A stretch of DNA of 64,000 nucleotides from Catajapyx aquilonaris (taxonomy: Eukaryota), in the NCBI GenBank assembly GCA_000934665.2, contig JYFJ02000399.1:1-64000 (forward strand), given 5' to 3'. Positions 10,321-57,314 of this stretch are shown in pieces. The translations under genes were made by a program, and so were the position numbers. Numbering within the stretch: the stretch's first letter is position 1; each line of letters starts with the position of its first letter. The notes under the pieces were generated by a model. That model did not search any database, was not told the DNA's origin, and saw only the letters and a program-made list of their open reading frames with translations.

Positions 10321-11223
10321 CTATATATAGACAGTCATTCACGGCAATCGGGATGATTCGAAGAGACGCCTCGAGGAAAGCAGATATCAATCGTCGAATT
10401 TAGAGGACACTGTCTTGCCAAGTCTATCCATTACGACGAGTAGACTACCAAACATGTAAGTGTTCAACAGATTAGATAAGTGCCGGAAAGTTAGCTGACC
10501 AAATCTTCAGTAAACGCGAGGGTATGTGAAAATTGTGATTGTTTAAAATCTCAGTTGCTTTAACACTTTAAAAAAGTCATCAAAATGTAACAGTACGAGC
10601 TTTTAATTGACGTGATATATGCCTCTTATTACGTGGGTATTACCCCCTTTGCGAAGTCTGCTCTCATCTTGCATCATATTCAAATATATTTCTTGGAGTA
10701 ATTTCTGTGGACTTGTGGAATCATTACCCCATTCAGGGAAAGCACCCTGTTGATAATTGAGGAATAAACAACTGTAATAATATCGTGCGTGCATGTCCAT
10801 TATTTCCACACCTTTCTTATAAATAGACACAGCATTGGTTTTTGTGATATTTTTACTATGCAAAAATTCCCCGAGTAGATTAACCTTGTGTAAGGAATGT
10901 CCACTAATTGTTATGCAGGATAGCGCACAACATAAGATTTTACCTATACACCTAGTGAAAACGTGATTGTTTGCTTAGCTATATCAGTTTAGAGTGGAAC
11001 AATCATACAGTAATTGAATTTTCAAAGGGTTTCGGGTATGAACAATGAAACTCTTATTTTCTAATAGTGACGTCCACATTATTTTTCCTTGTACTTCCAG
11101 GTAACACGTATGTGCCTCTGAAGTTCACGGAAGCTGCATTATTAGTGTAGGATTACATTAGAGCACGTTATACACATACTGAGCAGACGAGTATTTCACA
11201 GAGGCTAGGATAATTAGAGAGAC
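10321..11223 (+). promoter_or_regulatory. TATA-like box, 5'UTR exon and 5'UTR intron of the Cys-rich peptide gene
   Basis: CTATATATAG at 10321, donor AT|GTAAGT at 10456, polypyrimidine acceptor GTACTTCCAG ending at 11100. A kB-like GGGAATTTTT (minus strand) lies at 10862-10871. Confidence 0.5.
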
Positions 11224-11565
11224 ATGAATTCAACCCTGACTGTGATGATCTTGCTGGCAGGGCTTACTGTCCTGGTAAGTATGCCTACTCAAAATGCATG
11301 GCACATTATTAATATGAACACTGGTAACTTCTCACTTCAGGACATGACAGGAGCTCAGATACGGTGCGGATATCATGTCTGCGTGGGTATTGTAAGTATT
11401 ATGTAACAATAGTCAAATAGTGAATTAACTCCCAAAATTTTGTCTCCTTAGTCTCGATGCTGCTTGCAGTTCGGACAGATGCGATGTTGCGATGGCCTCC
11501 GTCGAGAGACTTTCAGCGGATCATCGTCTGATGTCATGAACGACCAACAAGGAGTCGTTAAGTGA
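11224..11565 (+). CDS. Small secreted cysteine-rich peptide precursor, 71 aa (C-x4-C-x5-CC-x7-CC)
   Basis: Exons 11224-11274, 11341-11391, 11452-11565, with strong GTAAGT donors, YAG acceptors and phase 0/0. Protein: MNSTLTVMILLAGLTVLDMTGA-QIRCGYHVCVGISRCCLQFGQMRCCDGL-RR-ETFSGSSSDVMNDQQGVVK. Hydrophobic signal peptide; AATAAA at 11685. Confidence 0.85.
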
Positions 11566-12426
11566 CATGCATCATTTGCCAAAATTAAGACTGTCTATTA
11601 AGGCGAAACTTATATGGCGCTTTTAGGACAAACGGCACTGTTGTGGAGGGAAGGTATGGGTGAATCGAATGTAATGTTCATGTTAATAAAATGTGTGTGG
11701 GTCTATTGAAAAATGCAATGGGTAAAAAACGAGCATTTGTTGAAAACATTGTTGGTGACAATGAACAACAAACTTTACCGGCTCCTTTAAAAAATTCTGC
11801 AGGTAGTGTAAGTGGTAAGTGACTCTTAAATAAGTTAGCACTGGGAGGAAAACAACAGCATCAAGGTTTGGATCTAACTTCCTCAAAAGAATCATGCAAA
11901 CCTATTATAAAATTACATTTTATTAAAAAAGAGTACAAACAGCTGCGATGTGAGTATAAAGGTCTACGTAAATGTTTCATAACACTCACGCGAAAAGTGG
12001 CATGCTATCATGGCAATTTCTGTCAAAAATACTGTAACGCTATAGTACAAATATCAACTGCGTAGACAAGAAGTACAGCACAGTAAAATTCATAGAGGGT
12101 TGAAACATTAGCTCATATTGGAGGAAATTTTTTTTTTTTGAAAAATACGACTATAATCTGTTCTACGTCAAGAATATGGCCACCCTATTCACTCTAAACA
12201 TTCACTTTAAATGATTTCTCTTGGAATCTGGACTGGTCATTGCACAACCCTTGATAATTAATTATTAAGTCAATAGTTACTCACTAACATTGCCATCGCA
12301 ATTCGCAAAACTGCTCTTCATGAATATATTACAATATTTCGATGTACAAACATGCTTTTCACACTGAGATCAATATCAGTCGTTGTCTTCCAGTCTTTGT
12401 AAAATAGAAATTACTGGTTGGAGGAA

Positions 12427-15400
12427 TCACCTTTTACCAGGAATGGGACACAATTTTCTTCTTTCATCGCCACCAATCCTCATGGTCAGAGTTTTTGACT
12501 TTGAAAAGCAGGCGCAACACGAAGGGAGGCGAAATGAGTCAGTCATGGCCGCCCCATCGTCTCCCAATGCCAACAGTTTTCTGTATATGAATTTTTGTCT
12601 GCAAACTGTCTCGATACCTGCTGGTGCACGGTCATTGAACGAACACGGGCTGCCATCATTTCTGAATAACAATAATTAATTAGAAAATCCAAATACTAAA
12701 CGAGCGGTGGAAAAACTTACAGGCATTTTTCAATCCTAATTCCCTGGACATAATCTCCCTGGTTGACAACATAAAGCCAGTTGTCCTCTTTGTTTTGGGC
12801 CACCTTTGGATATATGGTGTGCTCCATGGCTCCGCACAAGGGCACCTCGTTAACGTAATCGGTCCGTTCAGCTACAATATCTGGCCTCTGCAAATGAAAT
12901 TATCATAGATCATATGCATAGGTCTATAATATTATCATCAACACATCAGTCATCATATCTAAACTACTATCATGGCATATGAAAGTTTTGCAGCAATAAA
13001 GAAAGTTAATTTGTTAAATAAGTTACACCAAAAAAGTGACACCAAAGTTCTTGGCATTAACTGCGATGAAATACACTATTAACAAAAATTAAACATATTA
13101 TTAAATCTGAACTTTGCAGCATCTAAAATTAATTCAAACTTGTCACCATATGCTCTTTATATTAGTTCAACACTGTATAAACAATAAATTATAGAGATGT
13201 CTCTTCGAAAGCATAATAAATCAGTTGAAATATAGCATTTAAACCCATTTTAATTACAGTTTCCAGCACATGCTCTAATGAGGCAGATTTGCAACAAATA
13301 TGGGTCACATTCACCATGACTTGATAAGGCAAAACTTACCGCTATTGTCAAATTATCGTCGCCATACACCTCCTGGAATTTTTGCGGGCTTATTACTTTC
13401 TTCAAAATATGACTAAGATATTCCCTGAAACGATAACACCAAGTCAGATTATTTCCAATAACAACCTCATAAAAATCATAGAGTAATTGACCCTTGAAGG
13501 GCCGTATGACTGTTCTCTATCCAGCAATATTTTTTTGCCAATTTATACATGAAAGGCAAATATTTTGAATTGTTGCTTATTGTAATAATTTTTCCCATGG
13601 CGTTATAAAGACACATACGACGGATAAGAAGGGTCTTCCTCGCAAAAGTCCTTCCCGTTGGTACAAACCGGTCTGCATTCGTCCATCCTTGGCTTCAGAA
13701 GCCTGGACTCGATCGGAACAGAATCAACCTTGTCGTCATCAGGAAATGTTATTATGGAATCCTCGCTTTCGGAAGTCCTCATCATGCGAGCACTTTGTGA
13801 GCCTCTGTCATCACGTAATCTAGGCTTTAAAGAGAGAAACAAGACGTAACCACCCTTCGCACGTGTGTAAGATAATTACAGTGTTCATGTAACCCCCCGT
13901 TACAACACGTACCTCTTGGCTGGTCAAATCCTTCCTTAGTCTAGCCGGAACACTCATAGAAACGGGCAGGCACAGGACACAACACACCTGCAATAAATGG
14001 CATATTAAAATGTTAATAAAATTTAATTGCATGCGAATAGTTGCTACTAAAAATAACAGTCGAGTGTACTGAATGTACGCAGCACAAAAATTATGGACAA
14101 ATTTACATAATATTTCATCTGCAATTCAATGATTTCATGTAGGTACAAATTATTCCATTCAGGTACAATCCGTCGCCATATTGTCTGAATAATAAAATTA
14201 TGTATTTTCCCACAGTTATTAGAAATAATATTTTTCCCACCTGATTGATCAATGTCGCCATGTTAGAACAAAAATCAGTTGTGAGTGTAAAAGGAGGACT
14301 AGTCGATAAGGCAAAAAGTTACGTGAGGGGGATCGCTCGTCTAATTGCTTTGACCATGAAACCACAAGAAAGCGATGACGTCCATTATTTACAAGGCTGA
14401 GAAAATTGATTGTCCAATAATACTTTCAAGTTCGCAGCAACACTTACGCATTTTGATAGTGGGCTAACTTCCTAGATTTTGAAACCGAGCATTGCACTCA
14501 AGTTCGGCAACCTGTATTTTTTTAAAGGATTAATAATTCAAGGATTTTTGAATGGTACCGGGGGTGGCAGAAGGTCATCGAGTATTTTGCTGCGGTCAAA
14601 CCTTTTCAAGCCTTGGTATTTGCAAGAGTTTTGTATGGCATGCAATATTAGAATAAGAGACTCATCGATCTCTATTCTGTGACCCCCAAACTATACTAAT
14701 ATGGAGTTATGCAATCTGAGCTGGTCTATTGATTGGATTTGATGCATGAAGTACATACAGTAGTGTAAACACTTCTTAGAATTTTACTATACAACCTGTA
14801 GTACTGGCTCTTGTTGAATATTCAATCGAGGTTTTATGGCCTATAAAGTATTGCCGAGTGACATTCGAAAGGGAAGCGAAGCTGAGTTTTTACAAAGAGA
14901 CTAAGTGGTGCAGTATATAAAGTCAAACAAGCCTGATAAAGCAGCCGGTTGCACCATAGCAGGTGTAGCTGGTACTGTTTATGACATTTTGGGTCATTAT
15001 TTTCAACAAGTTGCAACAATTAAGGCGGCAACTGAAATACTACCCGAAGATCTAAACCCAATTTTATTAATGCATGTGTATTATTATGTTTTATCAATCA
15101 TTAGGCTATTATTATTTATCAGTTTCTTAGCTGCCTTAGTTAGTTGACTAATTTTAGAGTAAAAAAGTTGCGATGCATTAATTAATTGCGAGTCCGCAGC
15201 AGTATGTTTAAATACGTGTATGACGCGAGCTGTGTCGGAATCAATTGTTCGCGGGAAAGTGCACTCCTACAATCACAGTAGTTGAAATATTTTGGAAGTG
15301 TTCAGCCATGATTTTTTTTTACCCTTCCTTGAACCAGGTAGCAACACGTGGGAAAGTCCGGAATCAACCCAAATAAATCATCCTCTAAAAATATTGCACG

Positions 15401-15542
15401 CACCAGCAATCAGCATAACATTTTCAGCGGAATTTCCCCACAAAAATAATACACACAAGCCCAAAAGTTTCAAAGCATGGCATTATCATTATCACAATAT
15501 TACACATGAGTAACTTACAACAGTCCAGCAGAATGGCCACAT
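12427..15542 (-). CDS. spz: Spaetzle-family (cystine-knot Toll ligand) precursor, copy A, 263 aa
   Basis: Exons (minus) 15519-15542, 13913-13987, 13619-13824, 13340-13424, 12721-12887, 12427-12661; phases are consistent. Signal MWPFCWTVVCCVLCLPVSMS; prodomain PVC..G.DFCEE...YP; putative cleavage AER|TDY; knot LC...IYP...NWLYVVNQ...QGIRIEKC...PC...VCRQKFIYRKLLAL...DSFRLPSCCAC. Orthology to a specific spz number is not established. Confidence 0.95.
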
Positions 15543-15649
15543 TTTGCAGTCTTTTGGAGTCACCAACATCACCTCGATGTACTGTACCACAGAGTCCGAT
15601 TCTTCTGCAAGTCTATTCCACTCTATGTTCACTTCAATTCTGACCTCGC

Positions 15650-15745
15650 CAATGCCGTGCAAGGATAATATTCCCCAACCCACCCACCTCCTCCCCTTTT
15701 ACAACATGCCCCCCCNCCCCCCCCTACAGCCTGACGTCACTGTAT
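15650..15745 (-). promoter_or_regulatory. Putative spz-A promoter block, conserved with spz-B
   Basis: TGCCGTGCAAGG...AATATTC, a C-rich tract and (T)GACGTCAC occur in the same order as at 21400-21500 upstream of spz-B. Confidence 0.55.
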
Positions 15746-18205
15746 GAACAATAAAAGGGCGCTCAGCCGAGTGTTACAGGTAAGTTTATGAAAATAAATA
15801 TTAAATCATATACACTACGTAAAATGTTCACTTTCAATATTTTGTACATTAGTTTCATGTAATGAATATAGACAAGTGTATTTTGCATTTTTTTAAAGGC
15901 ATTAAAGTGGTGCAAAGTGAAGAGTTTGTTTTCAGTCAAGTTTAACCAATTTCATTAGTTGTAGGAAGAAAAGGGGTTCATTATGGAAAATAAGGCAAAT
16001 TCTAAGGGTGGAAATGCTAAATAAATTTAAATACTTCCCAGATGAGAGCCTAATCCAAGAATCAAACTCCGGACTTTGACTACTAAAGCACAGTAATAAC
16101 AAATAATAAATAGATGTTAAAACTGCAAGCATGATTAACACCGTAATGTCAATATTTCGATCGATTAAAATCAGATTCAGATCACCATATCGATCGACAC
16201 TCCTTTTCGTCGTATTGTTTAGATCCAAACATTATGACTCACGCTGTCAATGATCCGCGATTCCGTGCTGGGTCAACAAAACGAAGGTTATATGGATTTG
16301 AAATATTGTTCCGGGAAAAAGGCAGAACTACTCACCCCAATATCGAGGAATTTCCAGAGGCGACCATTACACCGTGTACAGTTGCAATCACCCGAGGGGT
16401 TTGCCCTTGTCGCCAGCCGGAATCGCGTGTGACCTCGTCTTTTTCACTTCCGTCCAGTGAGCGGAATATCTTAGAGCTGGATGGAAAACATGGTATCTCA
16501 CGAAGCGGGGGATTCACCCTGCCAAATGGGGTACTCCTACTCAACCTTGGCGGATACCGAAAAAAAACTCTAGTAAACTTACTTAAACATTTTGCTAGTT
16601 ACATAACTGCATGTGCACTGCGTGCAAACGTATTAAATTTAAATATAAATAAAAAAATCTAATAATATTATTTGGATCACAGGAGCAACAATACACTTGT
16701 TACCTGTCATGGCACGGTTCAGATGGTATGAATCACTGGGATTAAATTATTCGATGTGTGAATCACATATATACGTAACCTGTCTAATGATCCGTGATGT
16801 TGCCAGTAATATGGAAATGTTATCGCAATGACACTATTGAAACTAATATTTACTGGTCACTATAGTATCCACCGTATCCGGAATAACCCGAATACTGATA
16901 AAACACTAACCTCAATTATCACACACATGTTTAACCAAATTAGGCCGGAATTCAGAGAAGGTGTTAACGGACAGTTTCAGATCATTTAGCCACCTTACAA
17001 TTCACAAACATCTGCAGTTCTTAAACGAACTCTTCTAAACATACCATTTAAACGTCGTTTGGACCATTTGCGACTATTCCGCTCGGAAGGTTTGCAAAGA
17101 AAGTGGAACATAACACACAGCGGAAGCATGTAATATGAATACTAATCATTACACATTCATAAGCCGGAAAAAAGCTCTGGTGAAAGATTGTTGATTAAGG
17201 TTACGTAATTTTTATAAACTGCTAACCTTTGTGCGTTAGATATTGAACAACATGTTCCATTTTTTTCCAAATCATTTAGCTCAAGTTAGGACAAGTTGCA
17301 ATGATTCCAGTGATATAAGCAGCACAAGGTGTCTAAAAATTACGTGCACAATCTTCTATTTTTGCAAGCATAAGAGTCACAGCTTCAGTTTGATGCTATG
17401 CTGCGATGATATCTATTCAAAGTGATTCAGTACCAAGGGCATGGCAAAAACCTAGGTAAAATCCACCTACACCCAAACCCACGTAATTAATGCTGTATGA
17501 TCATAGAGTCAGTGGGTATTCCCTTCAGCAACTAATAGTCACACTTGGCTAACAAACCGTAGCATTTCTCCCTAAATGAGATTGATCACAAAATGATTAT
17601 ACCATACGCGTGTCATTTGAATTTTCACGCTACACAAAAATGATAATGCGCTAGTGGATAACAAGCATATATTTTAACACATATAAATGTTGTAAAATGA
17701 GTATAACGATGACAATAATGTTTGACATAATTTTCATCATTTAAAAACATGTGCTTAAACATTGTTACACACTCATATTGTCAGGCATGAGTTCAGTTCC
17801 TGACAGTGTGTAATGGAAGGCTAGTTGAATGAACACAAATTATTATTAAGGTTATCATTTAAGATTACACCTAATATGAAATTTACTTAATTTCAATTAA
17901 AAAACTGGGCATAACTGGGTTTGAATAATAAACAAGGGAAACTCTCCCACAATATACACATAAATGTTCCCTTAATTTAGTGACATAATCTGGCACTATT
18001 TTAACACCACATTATTCACTTAGAAAAGAAATGCAATTTACAAAATACGCAACAAACTTATGTCTGTAATGATCACAAAAATAGTCACTCGCCAAAATTC
18101 TACTCCAGAATTTCGCGACAACTCGAGAGCAGGATCTTTTCCCCCTCCTGCTGTGAGATCACAATCAGTCGTTGTCTCCTATAGTCCGTTTCAAAAATCT
18201 TTAAT

Positions 18206-21200
18206 TTACTCATCTCCAGGAACCGGACACAATCTTCTAGGCGAAAATCCTGCCCTTCGATTTTCAACCAAGAACTTTGATTTGACGAAACAAGCGCAGC
18301 ATGACGGAAGTCTGAACGAGTCTGTGATAGTGTTTCCTTCAGCATTCAGTGCCAAAAGTTTACGGTATATAAACTTCTGTCTGCAAACTGTCTTGAGACC
18401 CGCTGGAGCTCCGTCGTTGAACTGACATGGGCTGCCATCATTCCTTGAAGATAAGAGTAGTTTCACTTGTACTGTTTTTGTGACTAAAAATTAATTACGA
18501 AAATACTTACAAGCATTTTTCCAGTCTTATGCCCTGGATGTATTCACCTTGATTCACCACAAAAAGCCAGTTGTCTTCCTTGTTCTTAGCTACCTTTGGG
18601 TATATTGTGTGCTCTAATGTTCCGCATAATGATATTTCATCCACGTAGTCGATGCGCTCTCCTACTTTGTCAGCAGTCTGCAAAATATTACATCATCATC
18701 ATTTAGCATAAAATAAGGTAAAATCCTTGTAAAAGCAACCCGTCATAACGTAATATCTCTGTGCATAATGTGATATTGTTTAGACTTTAAAACTCGCTGA
18801 TCCTACTTACAACATAAGTGAAGTTGTCGTCTCCATAAACTTCTCTGAACTCTCTAGGGCTGAATTTCTTCAGCACTCGGGTCAGGTACTCACTGCAATA
18901 GGAAACAAACAATGAGCCTCAAATCATCATGTGTCTTCACCCTTGTAAATGAACGTACGATGGATAGGCCTCGTCCTGCTCGCAGAATTCGGCTCCTTTG
19001 CCACAAACAGGTCCGCATTCGTCTGCCTTGGGTGTCAAGTACCTGGGTACTATCGGAAGTACATCTCCTTGCTCGTCGTCTGGGAATGTAATTGACGAGT
19101 CTTCGTTTTCCTCTTCTGGTCTCCCACCCAGGTGACGACTGGAAGGTTCTCCGCCTCGGAAACGAAGAGGCTGGAATAATATTATACGCCTTAAAATCAT
19201 GTCAGCAATTAAACTCAGTTTGACTAACCTCGATATCGTAATCGTGGTAACTGTGGTAATGTCCTCTTCTGCGCGATCCATCATTATTCCAGTCTGTCGA
19301 GTCCCTTTTGACTCTGTCAGTAGGGACGCTCTTGGCTACTGACACACACACGATCAGAGTGACGAATATCTGTAAAACAACGTTCAGGTTGGTACAACAT
19401 ACTGTATAATTAAGTTACATACCAACAGTATAGGCTACGGTATTTTTTAGCTTAGAATAATTCGTTCAAGGCCTGCATTTTGTGAGCCCATTCACACAAT
19501 TTCCACCTTTTCCACAAGAAAGTTGAAAAATCTCATCTTAACAATTCAAAAAATGAGTTTATAAAGTTCACTAGGGAAGATTAAATTAAAATAGAAATTA
19601 AAATGTAGCATAAGACAATTAGCGTGACACTTCGACTTACCGACTACTGAAGGTCACTATAGTTTAACAAAAAAATTTGCATTCTACAAAATGCATTTAT
19701 TACAATTTGCAACTCATATTACTTGTATCATGCAGTGTAGCTTCTAATACTACTGAACGTAGCAGCTTGCTAATTATTAACTTATCAATTAAGCCTACTT
19801 ATTCATTAATTCATCAATTAATGCTTATTTATTAATGATTGGTTACAGTTTATTAGTTAATTATTTGTTGAAGTTTATTAATTAAACTTTTAATGGGGTT
19901 AATGTGAAAAAAGCTGCAATACTGAAACAATAATTATTATTGACTGACTCTAATTAAAGTCGATAACTGCATGCTGTTTCTGCAAGGTTAATGAAACATT
20001 TTAAGAATCTGCTAATCTAATCGGCTGCAGTCAACAAAAGGAAGGAAGATAAAAAGTTTGCGGAAAACCGGTCGGAAGCAAATTGGCAGCGTATCTGTCA
20101 ATGAGACGGAAAGTGTTTTTTTTTTGGTCGAGCCCGGTTCCGTTCCGCATATAAAACCCTAACATCCTCTCAACCTACATATCGCATTAAAAAAGTGAAA
20201 ACGAATTAATATTTTTGCACCCTGATTTTAATTTCTATGCCGCCCCGGAAGAGTAGTGTTCAAATGATAATTATGATATGAGTTATTATTCAACAAGTTA
20301 CGCAACTATCAGACTATGTTATTTTATTTTATTTATTTATTGACCATGGAGGAATGCTCAAAAATGATCATTTCCCTTGAGACACACCAATATTGTTTCC
20401 CAGTGATATTTTTGGACAGCACTGACCTGCTGCATTCCACAGTCTTCAGAAGCGCAAGACACCGTGGCGGGAAGCACAGACACACAAGACACACCGCCTG
20501 AGGATTACCGTACTTGAGCCTCCCTCTGGGCTCTCAGAAGATGCGACGTGACCCACAGAAGGTCAGCCGCGGTCAGCCGGCAGTGGCTAATGAAAGGGTT
20601 CTTATTGCCATCCTTTAGGCTTCCGTTATCGCAATACCTGAAGGGTATGAATGTGGCTCGCATTCTGATTCCGTCCATTCTTTCCTAGTTGACCCCCGAG
20701 TACGTGACATCGTATACGGAAGGTTTTTGTTCCTGAATATTGCAGCATTGTAAATCATATAAAGTCTTGCCTTGGTGACCTTCACTTGCAACGTGAGGTT
20801 GAGCAGCCTCAATTAATAACAACAACTCATAATAGCTGCGGCACATACGTTGATCACGTGATTAATGTAATTGGTTTAGAGCTGCAAACAACTGAGAGAA
20901 CAACAGTCTTTCTGAAGTAAGCCATACCAACTATATACTATTGACAACCTTACATAATAAATCAAAAAGTTTGTATGTCCGGGCTACCTAACCCACTTCC
21001 GGACTACTGAGAGTACTGAAACTTGGCACACTGATAGTGCCTCTGAGGGAAAAGTCCGAGAACGACACTTTTGTTGAGTCTAAATTACTACAATTTAGGA
21101 AATTTCCGGTCTGCAGTAATCAGCAATAATCCTGGCTTAGCCTACTTTACCATGGAAACAGGCTGTGCGAAGAACACCCTTCGCTGCTAGTCCTGTACTA

Positions 21201-21291
21201 ACTTGTAGCTATTAGGTTGCGTCTATTGAATGCCTCTTAGCAATAGTCATGTTATACATCACCCTGTACTTACCACTGTCCACGACCACAT
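18206..21291 (-). CDS. spz: Spaetzle-family precursor, copy B (tandem paralogue), 285 aa
   Basis: Exons (minus) 21274-21291, 19229-19369, 18959-19170, 18811-18892, 18511-18677, 18206-18443, with the same intron positions and phases as copy A. Signal MWSWTVIFVTLIVCVSVAKS, furin-type RVKR, putative cleavage GER|IDY, full cystine knot ending DSFRLPSCCAC. Confidence 0.95.
20948..21190 (+). mobile_element. Non-autonomous Helitron-like element in spz-B intron 1
   Basis: The 3' end is hairpin GCGAAG-n6-CTTCGC followed by CTAG|T. It shares TTACCATGG and the ATAA..AAAAGTTTGT 5' pattern with the 28223 copy. Confidence 0.5.
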
Positions 21292-21399
21292 TTTAGAAGA
21301 TGTCCTGAAGCATCAAACGGTACACTCTCTTGATGACTATCAAGCTGGTGGAGCTCAATATTATTCCTCTCTATGAGCACTACGATTCTGACCACACTG

Positions 21400-21502
21400 A
21401 TGCCGTGCAAGGCAAATATTCTCACCCCCCCCCCCCTCTCCCTCCCACAACTACCAACATCTCCCCCACAACTTTACCCACCCAACCACCATCGACGTCA
21501 CA
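21400..21502 (-). promoter_or_regulatory. Putative spz-B promoter block, conserved with spz-A
   Basis: TGCCGTGCAAGG...AATATTC, C-rich tract and GACGTCAC, 110-210 nt upstream of the ATG, mirroring copy A. Confidence 0.55.
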
Positions 21503-22386: not shown

Positions 22387-23223
22387 TCAGTACAAAACCC
22401 TGGCATGTGCTGATGGCTGATATGGCGGAAAAAATATGTAAGTCTGAGCCTGAGACCCAGTTTCAAGTGGCAGGTTCCCGGCGTTGATTGGTTTCAGAGG
22501 TTCAGACGCGTCTGAAGGTTCGTTCAGCAGATTCCGCTGCCTCAAATCCACTGGATCGTTGGGCTGAAATCCTCCTTGCAACACTGGCGCAACAGGAGGG
22601 TCTTGAAATGCACCCGATGATGGTGCATAGGACATGATGATGATGGACAGCAACAACAGCAGGAAAGACTGTTTTTCAGGGTGAAAGTGAGAAAACCAGT
22701 TGAATCAGGTCGAGTCCTGGATGTGTCAACGGATATGCAGGTGACATTACAACTCGTTACAAATTCTGATCCAGTTCATCCCATGAGATCATGAGTCATC
22801 AGGTGACGTAACTGGTATGACCATTTAATGTAGGTTAAACACACCAATAATGGACTAATATTAGTACCTAATAACTGCTAAAATTAATGCTACAAGCAGC
22901 TTCATCAAGCACTACATGTCATACAACATGTAGTTAAAGTATCAATAAACTGCAGAAGATCTAATACTTATTAAGAATCACGTTTCATGAACTTTTCGGT
23001 ATCAAGGACGACGACTCTAAATGTTCACAAACCGATAGTAGTTGCGACATGTGAGCCAAAAGCAGGTGTATCTATCATTGTACTTCCTTCCGGGCATAAA
23101 TGTGGTACACCACCATACCGCAACTGTTCTTTTTAATTATATTGCAAGAGCGGAAGAGCGGTCTGCGTCAAAGCTGTGGTCAAAATACATTAATAAAATG
23201 TCAAGAGTTGACAGACTTACCAT
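22387..23223 (-). CDS. Small secreted Pro-rich orphan protein, 94 aa
   Basis: ATG|GTAAGT at 23221-23223 splices in phase 0 to exon 22387-22668, giving MSFLLLLLSIIIMSYAPSSGAFQDPPVAPVLQGG...YIFFPPYQPSAHARVLY. Inr TCAGTT (23275-23280) with CATAAA about 28 nt upstream; AATAAA on the minus strand near 22270. Confidence 0.75.
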
Positions 23224-42449: not shown

Positions 42450-45400
42450 ATGCCACCAGCACGCGTGGGCTTGTTCCTACTGCTGCTGGCCCTTTCCGAA
42501 GTCTCCTCGAGTCACAGGCGCCAGAGGAGAGAGCCACCAAGTCACGGGGGAGGAAAGGGCGGCACCTTCACGCAGTCGCTGTCCTACGAGGTACCAGGGT
42601 CGTCCTACGGGGCGCCGTCGTCTTCGTACGGAGCGCCATCATCATCATACGGAGCACCGTCATCTTCATATGGCCCGCCTTCGTCGTCATATGGGGCGCC
42701 CTCCACTTCATACGGACCGCCATCGTCATCTTATGGCGTTCCGGACGATTCATACGGTCCGCCCAAAGTAAGTTGTGTAAAGTCCGTAACAGGGAGGATG
42801 GCGCTAACACTATGGGCGCTGTCAGTAGCGCATGCGTATTGACGTCACTTTTATGCGCATGTGTGAGACGTCTTAATTGGCCAATGGCGCTCTCACTTTC
42901 ACGCATGCGTATTGACGTCACAATTACTGCGCATGCGTGCGACGTCACTGACTCTCTTATTGGCTCGTGACATCACTGTCATGTATGCGCATGCGTAGTT
43001 CTCAAGTGGAATCCTACCATCACTAACTATGGCGGGCGATGGGCACTAACTCTAACCTCAATAATGGGTCTCAATTTGACGCATGGTTCGTTATTTTTAG
43101 AAGTACAAAAAAAAGCCGTCAACGTCGTACGGGCCTCCGTCTGACTCCTACGGTGCACCGGACACTTACGGGCCCCCCAAGGTAAAAAATAGGCCACTCA
43201 TCGAGGGGGTAGTAACTGTGTAAATCTGGGCATAAAATCCTTTTGGGAATCTTATGAATCCGATACACATTAAAATGGTACGTTGTTACCCCCTCGACTC
43301 TCATGGAGTTTCTGCCCCTCGCCCGCTGTAGCGCTGAGGTATCGGTACAATAAGTTGACCTCCAAATAGTTACTTCAGTGCAACTTGGCGCCACCTGCTC
43401 CCATTTATTGTAGGAGTAGTTATTCTTCAGTAAATCTTCTGAAGTGGGGTAAATAGGAGGACAATTTGCTTGATGCTTACAGAGTAAAGGGCACAAACTT
43501 CCTTCCGCATTCCCCGAATTGCAGTCTAACTATGATTTAATAGTACAAAGGTGGTGGTAGCGGAGGTGGAGGCTACGACTATGGCCACAGCAGCGGCGGA
43601 GGCGACTATGGACACGACGACGACAAAGGATTGGACATCCTGGGGGCCAAGAAGGCCCTGAAAGGAGCGGTGATGAAAGCGCTCAAATCCGTGAAAGGTC
43701 ACTTCAAGAAGCTGAAAGGAAAGCTGATGAAGGCCAAGGGAACCATCTTGGCCAAGAAGGGAGAAGCCGTCTACAAGCTGGGAGAACTCTTGCTGAAGAA
43801 AGGGAAGAAGTTGAAGTCCAAGGCTAAGGGCAAGGGCAAGGGCAAGGGCGGAGGCGGAGGTGGACACAGCGGAAGCGGCAGTGGAGGCGGAGGATACGAC
43901 TACAAGCCTAAGAAAGGTTAGCATTTGTCACGTGAGTCTTACAGTTCGATTAAGTGTTCAAATATGTAACATGTTTTTTATTAAGAAAATGGGTAGGAAG
44001 TAATACAAAAATCAGCTTTGTTACGATGTCCGTTCAGTGATCGTAAAACGCAGTAATGTCGCTTGTTTGAAAGGTACAGTATGTGGACGCCAAACCGACT
44101 GGCAGGCTTGTAGTTCGAGACTTGTATCGCACTGTAAAGTTTTAAGTATCACTTTGTAGATGTGCGTAAGCCAAGTTGTGTCACTTTCAATCTTTTGCAC
44201 TGTAGCACAGTAGACGTAAGTTTCTACTGTACCGCACTCTGTCCGCACATTGATAGCAATACCATGTACTGTGGGATATTGGGCTTAATGTTGATTGTTT
44301 AAATCTAATGCTGTCCTCAGCAAAAACGCCGCATCTGCAACGTCGCACTTGCAGATACGGCCTTTTTGCTAAGCACACCACCAGTACATCATTTCTTACG
44401 CAACCCGATCTCAGTTGCCACGTAGCATCATTGCACATTTGCATGCACTCCCTACTACTCTCTGATTCCAGGATACTCTGGGTACATAGTAATCAAAGCC
44501 GTAAAGACCGGCGGATACGGCCCACCCAGCACCTCGTACGGACCTCCGTCTACTTCATACGGTCCGCCGTCCACTTCTTACGGCCCGCCGTCCTCCTCTT
44601 ACGGAGCACCTTCCGGCGGCGGTAGCGGCGGCGGATACGGCGCTCCTTCTTCCTTCTCCTCTTCTGGCTCCGGACCGTCCAGCAGCTATGGCGCTCCGTC
44701 TCAAAGCTACGGTGCTCCGTCTCAAAGCTACGGTTCTCCATCTTTCTCCTCACCTTCAGAGCCAGCCAGCGGTTACGGCGCTCCGGCCGAAACTTACGGC
44801 GCCCCCTCTCAGAGTTACGGCGCTCCTTCCCAGACTTATGGCACGCCGTCGCAGACCTATGGGACGCCTTCTTCGCAATACACGGGCCCGTCCCAGACGT
44901 ACGGAGAGCCAGCCCCAAGCTACGGCCCGCCACCGTCGTCGAGTTATGGCCCACCGTCCGACACTTACGGAACACCGTCCCAAAGTTACGGCGCCCCAAG
45001 CGGTGGTGGTGGTGGTAGTGGAGGCGGCGGCGGCGGCGGATTCTCTTCATCAGGGGGTGGTGGCAGCTCGTACGGTGCTCCATCCGATAGCTACGGTGCA
45101 CCGTCTGGAAAGTCCAAGGGTGTCGTTACAGCAGCGGTAACAGCGCATCATACGCAGCACAAGAAGGGCAAGTCGTTTTCCCCTTCCTCATTCTCCGGAA
45201 TCCAGTTTGACTCCATCGTACCGGCAGTTAACGTGTACTCTGAGACTCTGACACAACAGCAGCCTTCTGCGTACGAGGACGATCTGAAAGGGTCGTACTC
45301 GTCGCACAACTCGGTCGAGGCTGAGCTGCCTGGCGGTGCGGCCGTTTTGGGCAACACGCCCGCCATTTTGAGCTCTTCCCCGACCGCGACAGCCATTTTG

Positions 45401-45628
45401 GATGGCACGACGCATCAGGGTAGCCAAGGGCCTGCGGACGGCTTTTCCCTGTATGTACAAACGTCGGACCCAGGACAACCACACCGAGACGCAACGACAC
45501 CTTCCTCCCCGACATTTGAAGTCTCGCCAGCCATCCTGGCACACGAGTTCCAGGAATCGACAGTTCTGCGCACCAGTGCTCAACCCCCATATGACAGTCA
45601 CCAGACCTCGTCAACCCCATCCCGTTAG
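42450..45628 (+). CDS. Secreted SYGAP/SYGPP-repeat structural (cuticle/ECM-type) protein with a Lys-rich helical insert, 642 aa
   Basis: Exons 42450-42767, 43101-43181, 43544-43916, 44472-45628, phases 0,0,1, 1929 nt open. Signal peptide, RRQRR convertase site, many S(S/Q/T)YG(A/P/T)P repeats, Gly runs. No R&R chitin-binding or Tweedle domain recognised. Confidence 0.9.
42828..42996. repeat. Intronic array of GCGCATGCGT + (T)GACGTC(A) units
   Basis: Five (G/A)CGCATG(C/T)GT motifs, four followed by a GACGTC core, interspersed with ATTGG/CCAAT. Confidence 0.75.
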
Positions 45629-55994: not shown

Positions 55995-56086
55995 GGATGG
56001 AATTTTAGTCCCACTGCTAGTTACTGCTAACTTAGTAGTACCACTGTTGGCACTGCTAAGTTAGCAGTGGGACGAAAATTCCGCCG
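55995..56086. mobile_element. Second copy of the palindromic MITE
   Basis: GGATGGAATTTTAGTCCCACTGCTA...TAGCAGTGGGACGAAAATTCCGCC, with the internal ACTGCTAACTTAG shared with 25996. Confidence 0.55.
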
Positions 56087-56136
56087 CTATAGTCATTAGT
56101 CAGTGTCATTTTTTTTCGAACTTGTGTTTGTTTCAG

Positions 56137-57314
56137 ATTGTGCTGCTTCTCTTATGCCTGACCTTGTCTGAATGGAGCTGTGCAGAGCCTCCGCGTCACC
56201 AGCACCATCACAAAGCACCTCCTAGGCAGCACACGGTGGTAGTCAAATTGGCCGGACCGAGCAAGATCTTCGGATGGGTAGGGGCCAGACATGCAAAAGC
56301 GCCGTACAAGATACCGAGGCCTTTCTTTCCCAAGTACTCGTACGCCCTGCCTAGTTACACCTCCTTCTACAAGGAGCATGGTCTGTACGGAAACTTCAAG
56401 GGAGTCAAAGGAAACAGCCTGATCGCTGTGGGTCCCAAGTACAAGTATTTTAAGCCCTCAATAGGCTACGAGGTTCCGTACTTCAGCAAAGATTTTGTGC
56501 CCCATTCGACTCACTACTACCCTGTTGAATCGTCCGGGTTCGGTAGCGGTAGTGGTTCAGGCCATGGAGATGTAGTGGCGTCAGTGGACGGAGGTCAGCT
56601 CCATAGCACATCTTCTGGACACGGCAGCTTCGGTGGAGTGTCCGGTGGCGGGTATGGGAGCTTCGGAGGCGTCTCTGGAGGTGGCGTGTCAGGAGGCGGC
56701 CATGGGAGCTTCGGTGGCGTCTCGTCAGGCGGTTCTTACGGCGGAGGAATCCACGTGGAGCAGCAAAAGATTGTTGAGTTTATGCCGTCGTTTGGACCCA
56801 TCGGAGGTGGACATGCACATGGCGATTCAGGTACTGTTGAAACTTATGCAAATGTCTCATATTGCATAACTTTCGCCAACAAAAGGGTAGGAATCCGCTA
56901 TTTACACTTTAAACTTGCAATACAGGTCCTGGTAGCGCCGTGTTTGGCTTGGCACCACCGCAGTCATCATACGGGGACCTCCTCCCGAGCTACTCCGAAC
57001 CGGAAGCCTTGGTCAGTAGGCATCCGACCGACACGACTCCTTCGCCCCCTCAGTACGTGGACATAAACGAGCTGCTGGGCAACCTTCCACAGAAGGACGA
57101 GAAGCTCAACATCATCCCAAGCGTGGAGCTCAAGTTCTCCTCCAGTACGCCTCCGACCTCCAGCAGCAGGGTCAGTGTCAAGGTCAGCACTTCTGAGAAG
57201 ACCAGCGAAACCGGACCTCACCACCATCATCCTCACAGAGGTGACATTCCTGTCCTGGAGAGGTCGGACCAAGTCGTGCGACCCAGAGTCAAGCCCGTGG
57301 GATACGTCTTGTGA
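56137..57314 (+). CDS. Secreted Gly/His/Tyr-rich low-complexity (cuticle-type) protein, ~360 aa; first coding exon uncertain
   Basis: Exons 56137-56830 and 56926-57314 (phase 1). Signal IVLLLLCLTLSEWSCA, GHGSFGGVSGG repeats, His tracts. Candidate phase-0 start mini-exons: ATG|GTGAGT at 51996-51998 or ATGCGACAA|GTAAGA at 51967-51975. TATATAA at 50890. Confidence 0.85.

What the first reader, a model, noticed from the sequence alone, without database searches (positions are those of the whole stretch)
12427..19030. Both Spaetzle paralogues carry one extra prodomain Cys and one extra tail Cys: a candidate disulfide latch
Seen: after the 7-Cys knot (..CCAC), both proteins have a ~25-aa tail ending R(K/R)LCP(I/V)PG. 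Both prodomains have a third Cys (DEC) just before the usual PxCxxGxxFCE pair. These motifs are conserved while neighbouring residues diverge. Established: Drosophila Spz C-106 has 7 Cys and its prodomain stays attached non-covalently after cleavage. Inference: the two surplus Cys pair and covalently tether the prodomain to the ligand, so the normal cut alone would not release it. Alternatively, the tail Cys forms a second inter-chain bond.
Basis: partly seen in the sequence, partly recalled or inferred. Interest (0 to 1): 0.7.

Follow-up and report, generated by a model that had tools for sequence, protein, structure and literature searches.

The report
Spaetzle pair with two extra cysteines
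Two neighbouring genes for Spaetzle, the signal protein that switches on the arthropod Toll immune receptor, each carry two extra cysteines that may staple the inhibitory front piece to the active signal until a second cut frees it, but the bond itself has not been shown.

Summary
Two tandem, spliced Spz1-type genes (285 and 263 aa, minus strand) each have 3 prodomain, 7 knot and 1 tail Cys. Of 68 single-knot homologues, none has the upstream prodomain Cys and only an artefact has a tail Cys, so the pair is lineage-specific.

For a prodomain-tail latch: a separate clade of single-chain tandem-knot Spz also pairs a tail Cys with a surplus prodomain Cys. 23 of 24 have both; one has lost both.

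Against: pea aphid Spz1-1 has a tail Cys with no surplus prodomain Cys, and Aedes Spz1C uses its extra Cys as a second inter-chain bond.

New here: an Arg conserved 9-12 residues after the knot (79 of 97 homologues) lies between knot and tail Cys. A second trypsin-type cut could therefore open the latch.

No structure of these proteins could be run. Odds: latch 0.5, homotypic inter-chain bonds 0.3. New variant of a known kind.

The parts
21274..21291 (-). Gene A coding exon 1 (start codon, first part of the signal peptide)
   Evidence: joint 19369-21274 in run X1; open model
19229..19369 (-). Gene A exon 2: rest of the hydrophobic leader (by eye) and a furin-type RVKR site
18959..19170 (-). 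Gene A exon 3: prodomain with FPD motif, surplus Cys (DEC) and the conserved C-x6-C pair
19015..19017 (-). Gene A surplus prodomain Cys105
18811..18892 (-). Gene A exon 4: prodomain segment before the activation site
18511..18677 (-). Gene A exon 5: predicted activation site Arg159-Ile (codon at 18656) and first half of the knot
   Evidence: PF16077 E 7.5e-9; Arg is 10 residues before knot Cys1, and Cys1 is residue 10 of the mature chain 3e07_A
18206..18443 (-). Gene A exon 6: second half of the knot (CCAC), tail Arg269/Arg270, tail Cys279, stop
   Evidence: PF16077 E 3.2e-13
18227..18229 (-). Gene A tail Cys279
15519..15542 (-). Gene B probable coding exon 1 (inferred)
   Evidence: ATG..GTAAG in phase; upstream block like that of gene A; no contig cover
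13913..13987 (-). Gene B exon 2: rest of the leader
   Evidence: joint 13824-13913
13619..13824 (-). Gene B exon 3: prodomain with DEC and the conserved pair
13675..13677 (-). Gene B surplus prodomain Cys83
13340..13424 (-). Gene B exon 4
12721..12887 (-). Gene B exon 5: predicted activation site Arg138-Thr (codon at 12866) and first half of the knot
   Evidence: PF16077 E 3.6e-9
12427..12661 (-). Gene B exon 6: second half of the knot, tail Arg247-Ile-Gly-Gly (codon at 12480), tail Cys257, stop
   Evidence: PF16077 E 1.1e-12
12448..12450 (-). Gene B tail Cys257

Best explanation
Both genes encode Spz1-type pro-ligands for Toll. Shown: gene structure, splicing and Cys inventory. From established family knowledge: six knot Cys form the knot, the seventh joins two chains, and a trypsin-like clip protease cuts at the Arg 10 residues before the knot. 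Inferred: the conserved C-x6-C pair closes a prodomain loop, which leaves one free prodomain Cys and the tail Cys. These two form a disulfide, within one chain or across the dimer; any of the three prodomain Cys could be the partner. After the normal cut the prodomain therefore stays covalently hung on the ligand by a 20-residue tail. Further inferred: a second cut at the tail Arg (A Arg269/270, B Arg247) removes prodomain and tail together and leaves an ordinary knot dimer. The likely effect is a higher activation threshold or tighter storage, not a new signal.
For: (1) Parity: exactly two surplus Cys in a secreted protein, both kept across saturated silent divergence. (2) Both are absent from the nearest rows in the tree (P0030, P0005; support 80), from 68 of 68 single-knot homologues as a pair, and no tail Cys is seen in 16 of 16 metagenome loci. 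(3) A separate clade of two-knot, 6-Cys Spz has a Cys 19-33 aa after knot 1 and a surplus Cys in prodomain 2: 23 of 24 rows have both, 0 have one only, and P0046 has neither. P0046 is nested inside that clade, so this is one joint loss. (4) In the AlphaFold model of one such protein (P0028, pTM 0.65) the block 221-230, next to tail Cys220, has pLDDT 75 between flanks under 50. That fits a docked peptide, but no distances were given. (5) An Arg lies at tail +9 to +12 in 79 of 97 single-knot homologues (shuffles: mean 34.9, 0 of 2000 as high) and in 20 of 25 tandem first units. B's Arg-Ile matches the commonest residue after activation Args (Ile, 33 of 75). (6) The prodomain normally stays attached non-covalently after the cut (PMC9427763, passage), so the two parts are neighbours.
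Against: No structure or chemistry for these proteins. Pea aphid Spz1-1 (P0221) has a tail Cys at +18 with only two prodomain Cys, and P0016 has a surplus prodomain Cys with no tail Cys, so each kind can stand alone. Aedes Spz1C uses its eighth Cys as a second inter-chain bond. In the tandem clade the surplus Cys lies 27-39 aa after the conserved pair (6 by the parse in P0055), not 4 before it. Profile comparison stops 7 residues after the knot and the clade is separate, so it is an analogy and not an orthologue. The joint loss is a single event in a single unnamed sequence. Genes A and B are one gain. The tail Arg may be structural; the residue after it is most often Ser (22 of 79), not Ile (14 of 79).
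Confidence: 0.5

Rival explanations
1. Homotypic bonds across the dimer: tail Cys to tail Cys gives the mature ligand a second inter-chain bond, and the surplus prodomain Cys joins the two prodomains. The prodomain would still leave after one cut; the extra bonds only stiffen the dimer.
For: Aedes Spz1C has two inter-chain disulfides (PMC9427763, passage). Pea aphid Spz1-1 has a lone tail Cys at +18 and P0016 a lone surplus prodomain Cys. Each gain is self-sufficient, so no unpaired intermediate is needed (inference). TGF-beta1 prodomains dimerise through their own Cys (recalled).
Against: It needs two independent gains on one branch, where each is rare (0 of 68, and 1 artefact of 68). It does not explain 23 both / 1 neither in the tandem clade, where each chain has only one of each Cys.
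Confidence: 0.3
2. One or both surplus Cys bind a third protein (a carrier, matrix or cell-surface anchor), as latent TGF-beta is bound to LTBP or GARP (recalled).
For: Both Cys lie at the ends of the ordered core, in Pro- and charge-rich segments. Lone surplus Cys exist in homologues.
Against: No partner was identified or sought. Two surplus Cys are satisfied without one.
Confidence: 0.1
3. The two Cys were inherited from the pre-duplication gene and have no special role.
For: Only two sequences and one gain. Local identity is 44-57%, so retention of two given residues is not improbable.
Against: Silent sites are saturated while both Cys and the LCP.PG motif persist. Free Cys in secreted proteins are usually disfavoured (established knowledge). 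Tail Cys are very rare in the family.
Confidence: 0.1

Closest known systems
Drosophila Spaetzle (Spz1; C-106, PDB 3e07/4bv4) and basal insect Spz1 (Ladona, Rhodnius, Anabrus, Zootermopsis)
   Same: PF16077 knot with 7 Cys, prodomain FPD and C-x6-C-..YP motifs, Arg about 10 residues before the knot; 54-58% identity to these four over the second half of the knot
   Different: These lack the DEC Cys and the tail Cys; the Drosophila prodomain is held non-covalently after cleavage
Aedes aegypti Spz1C (PDB 7b1b/7b1c)
   Same: A duplicated Spz1 with a surplus Cys that forms an extra disulfide (PMC9427763, passage)
   Different: Its extra Cys59 is inside the knot domain and bonds to its twin across the dimer; no prodomain link is described in the passages read
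Pea aphid spaetzle 1-1 (NP_001153589.1)
   Same: 7-Cys knot with a Cys near the end of the tail (+18)
   Different: Only two prodomain Cys, so no in-chain partner
Unnamed single-chain tandem-knot Spz (P0024, P0026, P0028 and others)
   Same: Cys 19-33 aa after a knot, preceded by an Arg, plus one surplus prodomain Cys; joint loss in P0046
   Different: Two 6-Cys knots in one chain and no inter-chain Cys; surplus Cys just before the second activation site; separate clade
Horseshoe crab coagulogen (PDB 1aoc)
   Same: Related knot fold (Foldseek hit to the tandem model, E 1.1e-3); cut twice, with the N-terminal chain left disulfide-linked to the knot chain (recalled)
   Different: A clotting protein, not a Toll ligand; there the link persists in the active form

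Membership tests
Spaetzle, Spz1 type | Spaetzle cystine-knot domain (PF16077) | tested here: met
   4 of 4 knot exons score over the cut-off
Spaetzle, Spz1 type | Six knot Cys plus the inter-chain Cys next to Cys V, with no other Cys inside the knot (PMC2772990, passage) | tested here: met
   7 Cys ending in CCAC in both genes
Spaetzle, Spz1 type | No Spz2-type C-terminal extension motif (PMC2772990, passage) | tested here: met
   tails of 26-27 aa without it, read by eye
Spaetzle, Spz1 type | Prodomain with FPD and C-x6-C..YP motif | tested here: met
   aligns with 30 homologues, with one surplus Cys
Spaetzle, Spz1 type | Trypsin-type activation Arg about 10 residues before the knot | tested here: met
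   Arg at -10 in both; modal distance 10 (29 of 75) in homologues; Thr after the Arg in gene B is rare (2 of 75). Cleavage itself is not shown.
Spaetzle, Spz1 type | Signal peptide | tested here: inconclusive
   hydrophobic N-terminal 20 residues by eye; no predictor run; gene B exon 1 is inferred
Spaetzle, Spz1 type | Orthology to insect Spz1 by tree | tested here: inconclusive
   quick tree places A+B among 7-Cys single-knot rows, near a barnacle protein (P0068) and outside the large clade that holds the named winged insects; support 80-93; no Spz2-6 outgroup
Spaetzle, Spz1 type | Binds and activates a Toll receptor; prodomain held non-covalently | not testable with these tools
   needs biochemistry
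Tandem-knot 6-Cys Spz clade | Two knots per chain, each lacking the inter-chain Cys | tested here: not met
   one 7-Cys knot per gene; separate clade

The most novel reading that the evidence does not exclude
Arthropod Spaetzle has at least twice evolved a covalent latency latch: a disulfide from the knot's tail to the prodomain, here and in a clade of single-chain tandem-knot Spz. It is opened by a second protease cut at a family-conserved tail Arg, which makes Toll activation a two-cut switch in these lineages and gives the conserved tail Arg of ordinary Spz1 a function.
Probability: 0.3. Interest if true: 0.72.

Novelty: new variant of a known kind. Interest (0 to 1): 0.5.

Why it matters
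How the Spaetzle prodomain masks the ligand and is displaced is known mainly from Drosophila biochemistry, and the Foldseek search listed no solved pro-Spz. A natural prodomain-tail disulfide would be a distance constraint on the latent state and might give a stable pro-form suited to structure work. It would also show that Toll ligands can be held latent covalently. If the bonds are homotypic instead, the finding is a minor variant like Aedes Spz1C.

Tried and rejected
Search for close relatives with both Cys: none found. One search gave 19 hits, another the best 150 of 557, one search gave 5 hits. (prodomain exons) scored 0 of 102 candidates; 0 of 63 stretches confirmed; 16 loci of 96 stretches, none with a tail Cys. 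Atlas look-ups gave only Spaetzle clusters under 0.9 or nothing. So the decisive orthologue test could not be done.

Structure: the complex predictor was not available and a second fold (P0046) was not accepted. No model of genes A or B exists, and the one model is of a homologue and gives no distances.

Expression: no RNA holder was listed. X1 is of unrecorded kind; its contigs are spliced, but depth ranks nothing.

Rejected: that the tail is inherited from the tandem clade (the profile match ends at +7; separate clade). Rejected: that DEC belongs to the conserved pair (C-x6-C aligns to the second and third Cys).

Apparent tail Cys in P0006 and P0079 are repeated or reordered knot starts; the mid-prodomain Cys in P0159 lies in an intron-like insert. 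Rows dropped before the count of 68 were fragments without a whole knot or prodomain pair. Among them a Cys within about 45 aa after the knot was seen in P0006, P0059, P0103, P0133, P0139, P0145, P0150 and P0153. P0139 led to the aphid protein. P0153 (Dermacentor) has a tail Cys at +18 and a single prodomain Cys but lacks the usual pair, so it was not scored.

I noticed that the tail repeats the spacing of the activation site (Arg, 8 residues, Leu-Cys), which hints at a partial duplication; not tested.

Papers: the Arnot 2010 JBC paper was not held. Ten searches listed no paper on a prodomain-tail disulfide or on tandem-knot Spz. The library lacks most subscription journals and cannot search the accented spelling, so absence from print is not established. 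Earlier scan notes: one unrelated note, none by sequence or words.
Full report
Gene structure. The interval holds two tandem genes on the minus strand. Gene A has six coding exons from 21291 to 18206 and gives 285 aa; gene B has six from 15542 to 12427 and gives 263 aa. Contigs of run X1 join across all 5 introns of A and 4 of 5 of B at the modelled sites with no differing letters listed. The run's kind is not on record, and B's first exon has no cover. All four knot exons match Pfam PF16077 above its cut-off, and the second half of the knot matches the solved Drosophila and Aedes chains. The organism is not known; the tree and the hits say arthropod.

The observation. Outside the leader each protein has 11 Cys: three in the prodomain (A 105, 109, 116; B 83, 87, 94), seven in the knot, and one in the tail (A 279, B 257). 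Alignment with 30 homologues shows that the second and third prodomain Cys are the family's C-x6-C pair, so the DEC Cys is the surplus one. The paralogues are 61% identical (160 of 261 aligned), with saturated silent sites (pS 0.83) and knot dN 0.13. The tail motif is 6 of 8 identical against 7 of 16 before it; the prodomain block around DEC is 27 of 47. Both Cys are kept, but the contrast with neighbours is modest, and the two genes form one clade (support 99): one gain.

How unusual. Searches gave 160 distinct proteins. Of these, 68 have a single whole 7-Cys knot and the prodomain pair. None has a Cys within 12 residues upstream of the pair, one has a tail Cys (P0079, a repeated knot start), and two have a mid-prodomain Cys (P0016; P0159 in an intron-like insert). 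Fragments dropped before this count are listed under Tried and rejected. The nearest rows in a quick tree (P0030, P0005, P0023, and P0068, a barnacle protein; support 80) lack the pair, and 16 metagenome loci lack a tail Cys. Eight other Spz-like loci of this genome showed no such tail motif, read by eye. No close relative was found, so joint loss could not be scored in this lineage.

An independent parallel. The search returned a clade of unnamed single-chain proteins with two knots, each lacking the inter-chain Cys. They carry a Cys 19-33 residues after knot 1 (often LPxC) and a surplus Cys in the second prodomain shortly before its activation site. Among 24 cluster representatives, 23 have both, none has one, and P0046 has neither (eight cluster mates in the alignment were not counted; P0025 and P0036 have 7-Cys knots and neither Cys; P0039 and P0059 are incomplete). 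P0046 is nested in the clade in the quick tree (114 units, midpoint root, no one-clade test). An AlphaFold model of P0028 (pTM 0.65) is confident at residues 221-230, next to the tail Cys, between disordered flanks; it gave no distances. Its structural matches are knots only: neurotrophins, Spz and coagulogen. This is good circumstantial evidence that a tail-to-prodomain disulfide exists in some Spz. It is an analogy: the surplus Cys is at another prodomain position, the tails do not align by profile, and the clade is separate.

Evidence the other way. Pea aphid spaetzle 1-1 has a tail Cys at +18 and only two prodomain Cys, most simply a tail-tail bond. P0016 has a lone surplus prodomain Cys. 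Aedes Spz1C has a second inter-chain disulfide through Cys59 (PMC9427763, passages; its supplementary figure 3 was not read and may bear on this). Homotypic pairing is therefore well precedented and needs no unpaired intermediate.

Release. The activation Arg lies 10 residues before knot Cys1 in both genes, as in the mature Drosophila chain where Cys1 is residue 10 and as the modal distance in homologues (29 of 75 with an Arg, of 87 examined). B has Thr after it, which is rare (2 of 75). An Arg also lies 9-12 residues after the knot in 79 of 97 single-knot homologues with tails of 16 aa or more (of 125; shuffles mean 34.9, SD 4.4, 0 of 2000 as high) and in 20 of 25 tandem first units. In A it is Arg269/270 and in B Arg247-Ile-Gly-Gly, between knot and tail Cys. 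A cut there would free prodomain and tail together. This step is inference; the Arg could be structural.

Mechanism and odds. Prodomain-tail disulfide 0.5 (opened by a second cut in more than half of that share); homotypic inter-chain bonds 0.3; third partner 0.1; no role 0.1. Shown: genes, splicing, Cys pattern, rarity, the parallel clade, the tail Arg. Established: knot bonding, Arg cleavage and non-covalent prodomain retention in Drosophila (PMC9427763 introduction; PMC8637286, PMC6683665 and PMC9861120, passages). Inferred: every disulfide involving the surplus Cys and the second cut.

Comparison and novelty. The genes meet the sequence features of Spz1-type Spaetzle (PMC2772990, passages); Spz1 is known to split into taxon-specific groups (PMC8296651, passages). 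PMC8176732 (passages) mentions copepod Spaetzle transcripts but not their architecture. Ten searches listed no report of a prodomain-tail disulfide or of tandem-knot Spz, within a library that lacks most subscription journals and the accented spelling. What I say of TGF-beta, coagulogen processing and the Weber and Arnot papers is recalled. The complex predictor was not available, so geometry is open. Verdict: real, lineage-specific, new variant of a known kind, mechanism plausible but unproven; interest 0.5.

Noticed in passing
proteins P0024, P0026-P0028, P0035, P0040, P0046 and others (alignment A3): A clade of single-chain Spz with two 6-Cys knots, probably an intrachain pseudo-dimer, often with basic furin-like sites in the linker. 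All unnamed, from ENA, JGI and Logan; a copepod origin is my guess and is not shown. No paper found.
   Followed up: partly
window 18154-18198 and 12365-12405 (minus strand): A block of about 45 bases just after both stop codons is shared by the two 3' UTRs (score 39; shuffles mean 22.6, max 33, 0 of 300) while local scores of the intron pairs are lower (12-31); a candidate regulatory element.
   Followed up: partly
window 21362-21451 and 15614-15705 (minus strand): A block of about 90 bases upstream of both start codons is conserved (score 76; shuffle max 27), probably promoter or 5' UTR.
   Followed up: partly
window 12864-12866: Gene B's predicted activation site is Arg-Thr, rare among homologues (2 of 75), which hints at a different activating protease or rate.
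   Followed up: no
L035:2296-4046 (G000:C153, about 64.3-66.0 kb, just beyond the window): A third Spz-like gene on the same contig, plus strand, with a long Gln/Pro-rich prodomain and extra Cys inside a knot ending CVC.
   Followed up: no
window 22387-22668 and 23221 upward (minus strand): A small spliced gene (joint 22668-23221 in X1) for a secreted-looking peptide of about 95 aa directly upstream of gene A.
   Followed up: no
window 42450-45628 and 56065-57066 (plus strand): Gly/Ser/Pro-rich ORFs with YGAP/YGPP repeats that look like cuticle or resilin-type proteins (family name by recall).
   Followed up: no
P0221 (pea aphid Spz1-1) and P0153 (Dermacentor Spz-like): Both end in a Cys 18 residues after the knot; the aphid protein has no surplus prodomain Cys, and the tick model has one prodomain Cys and lacks the usual pair.
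   Followed up: partly
window 11069-11541 (plus strand): Short exon-like stretches for a possible small secreted Cys-rich peptide just downstream of gene B; not modelled.
   Followed up: no
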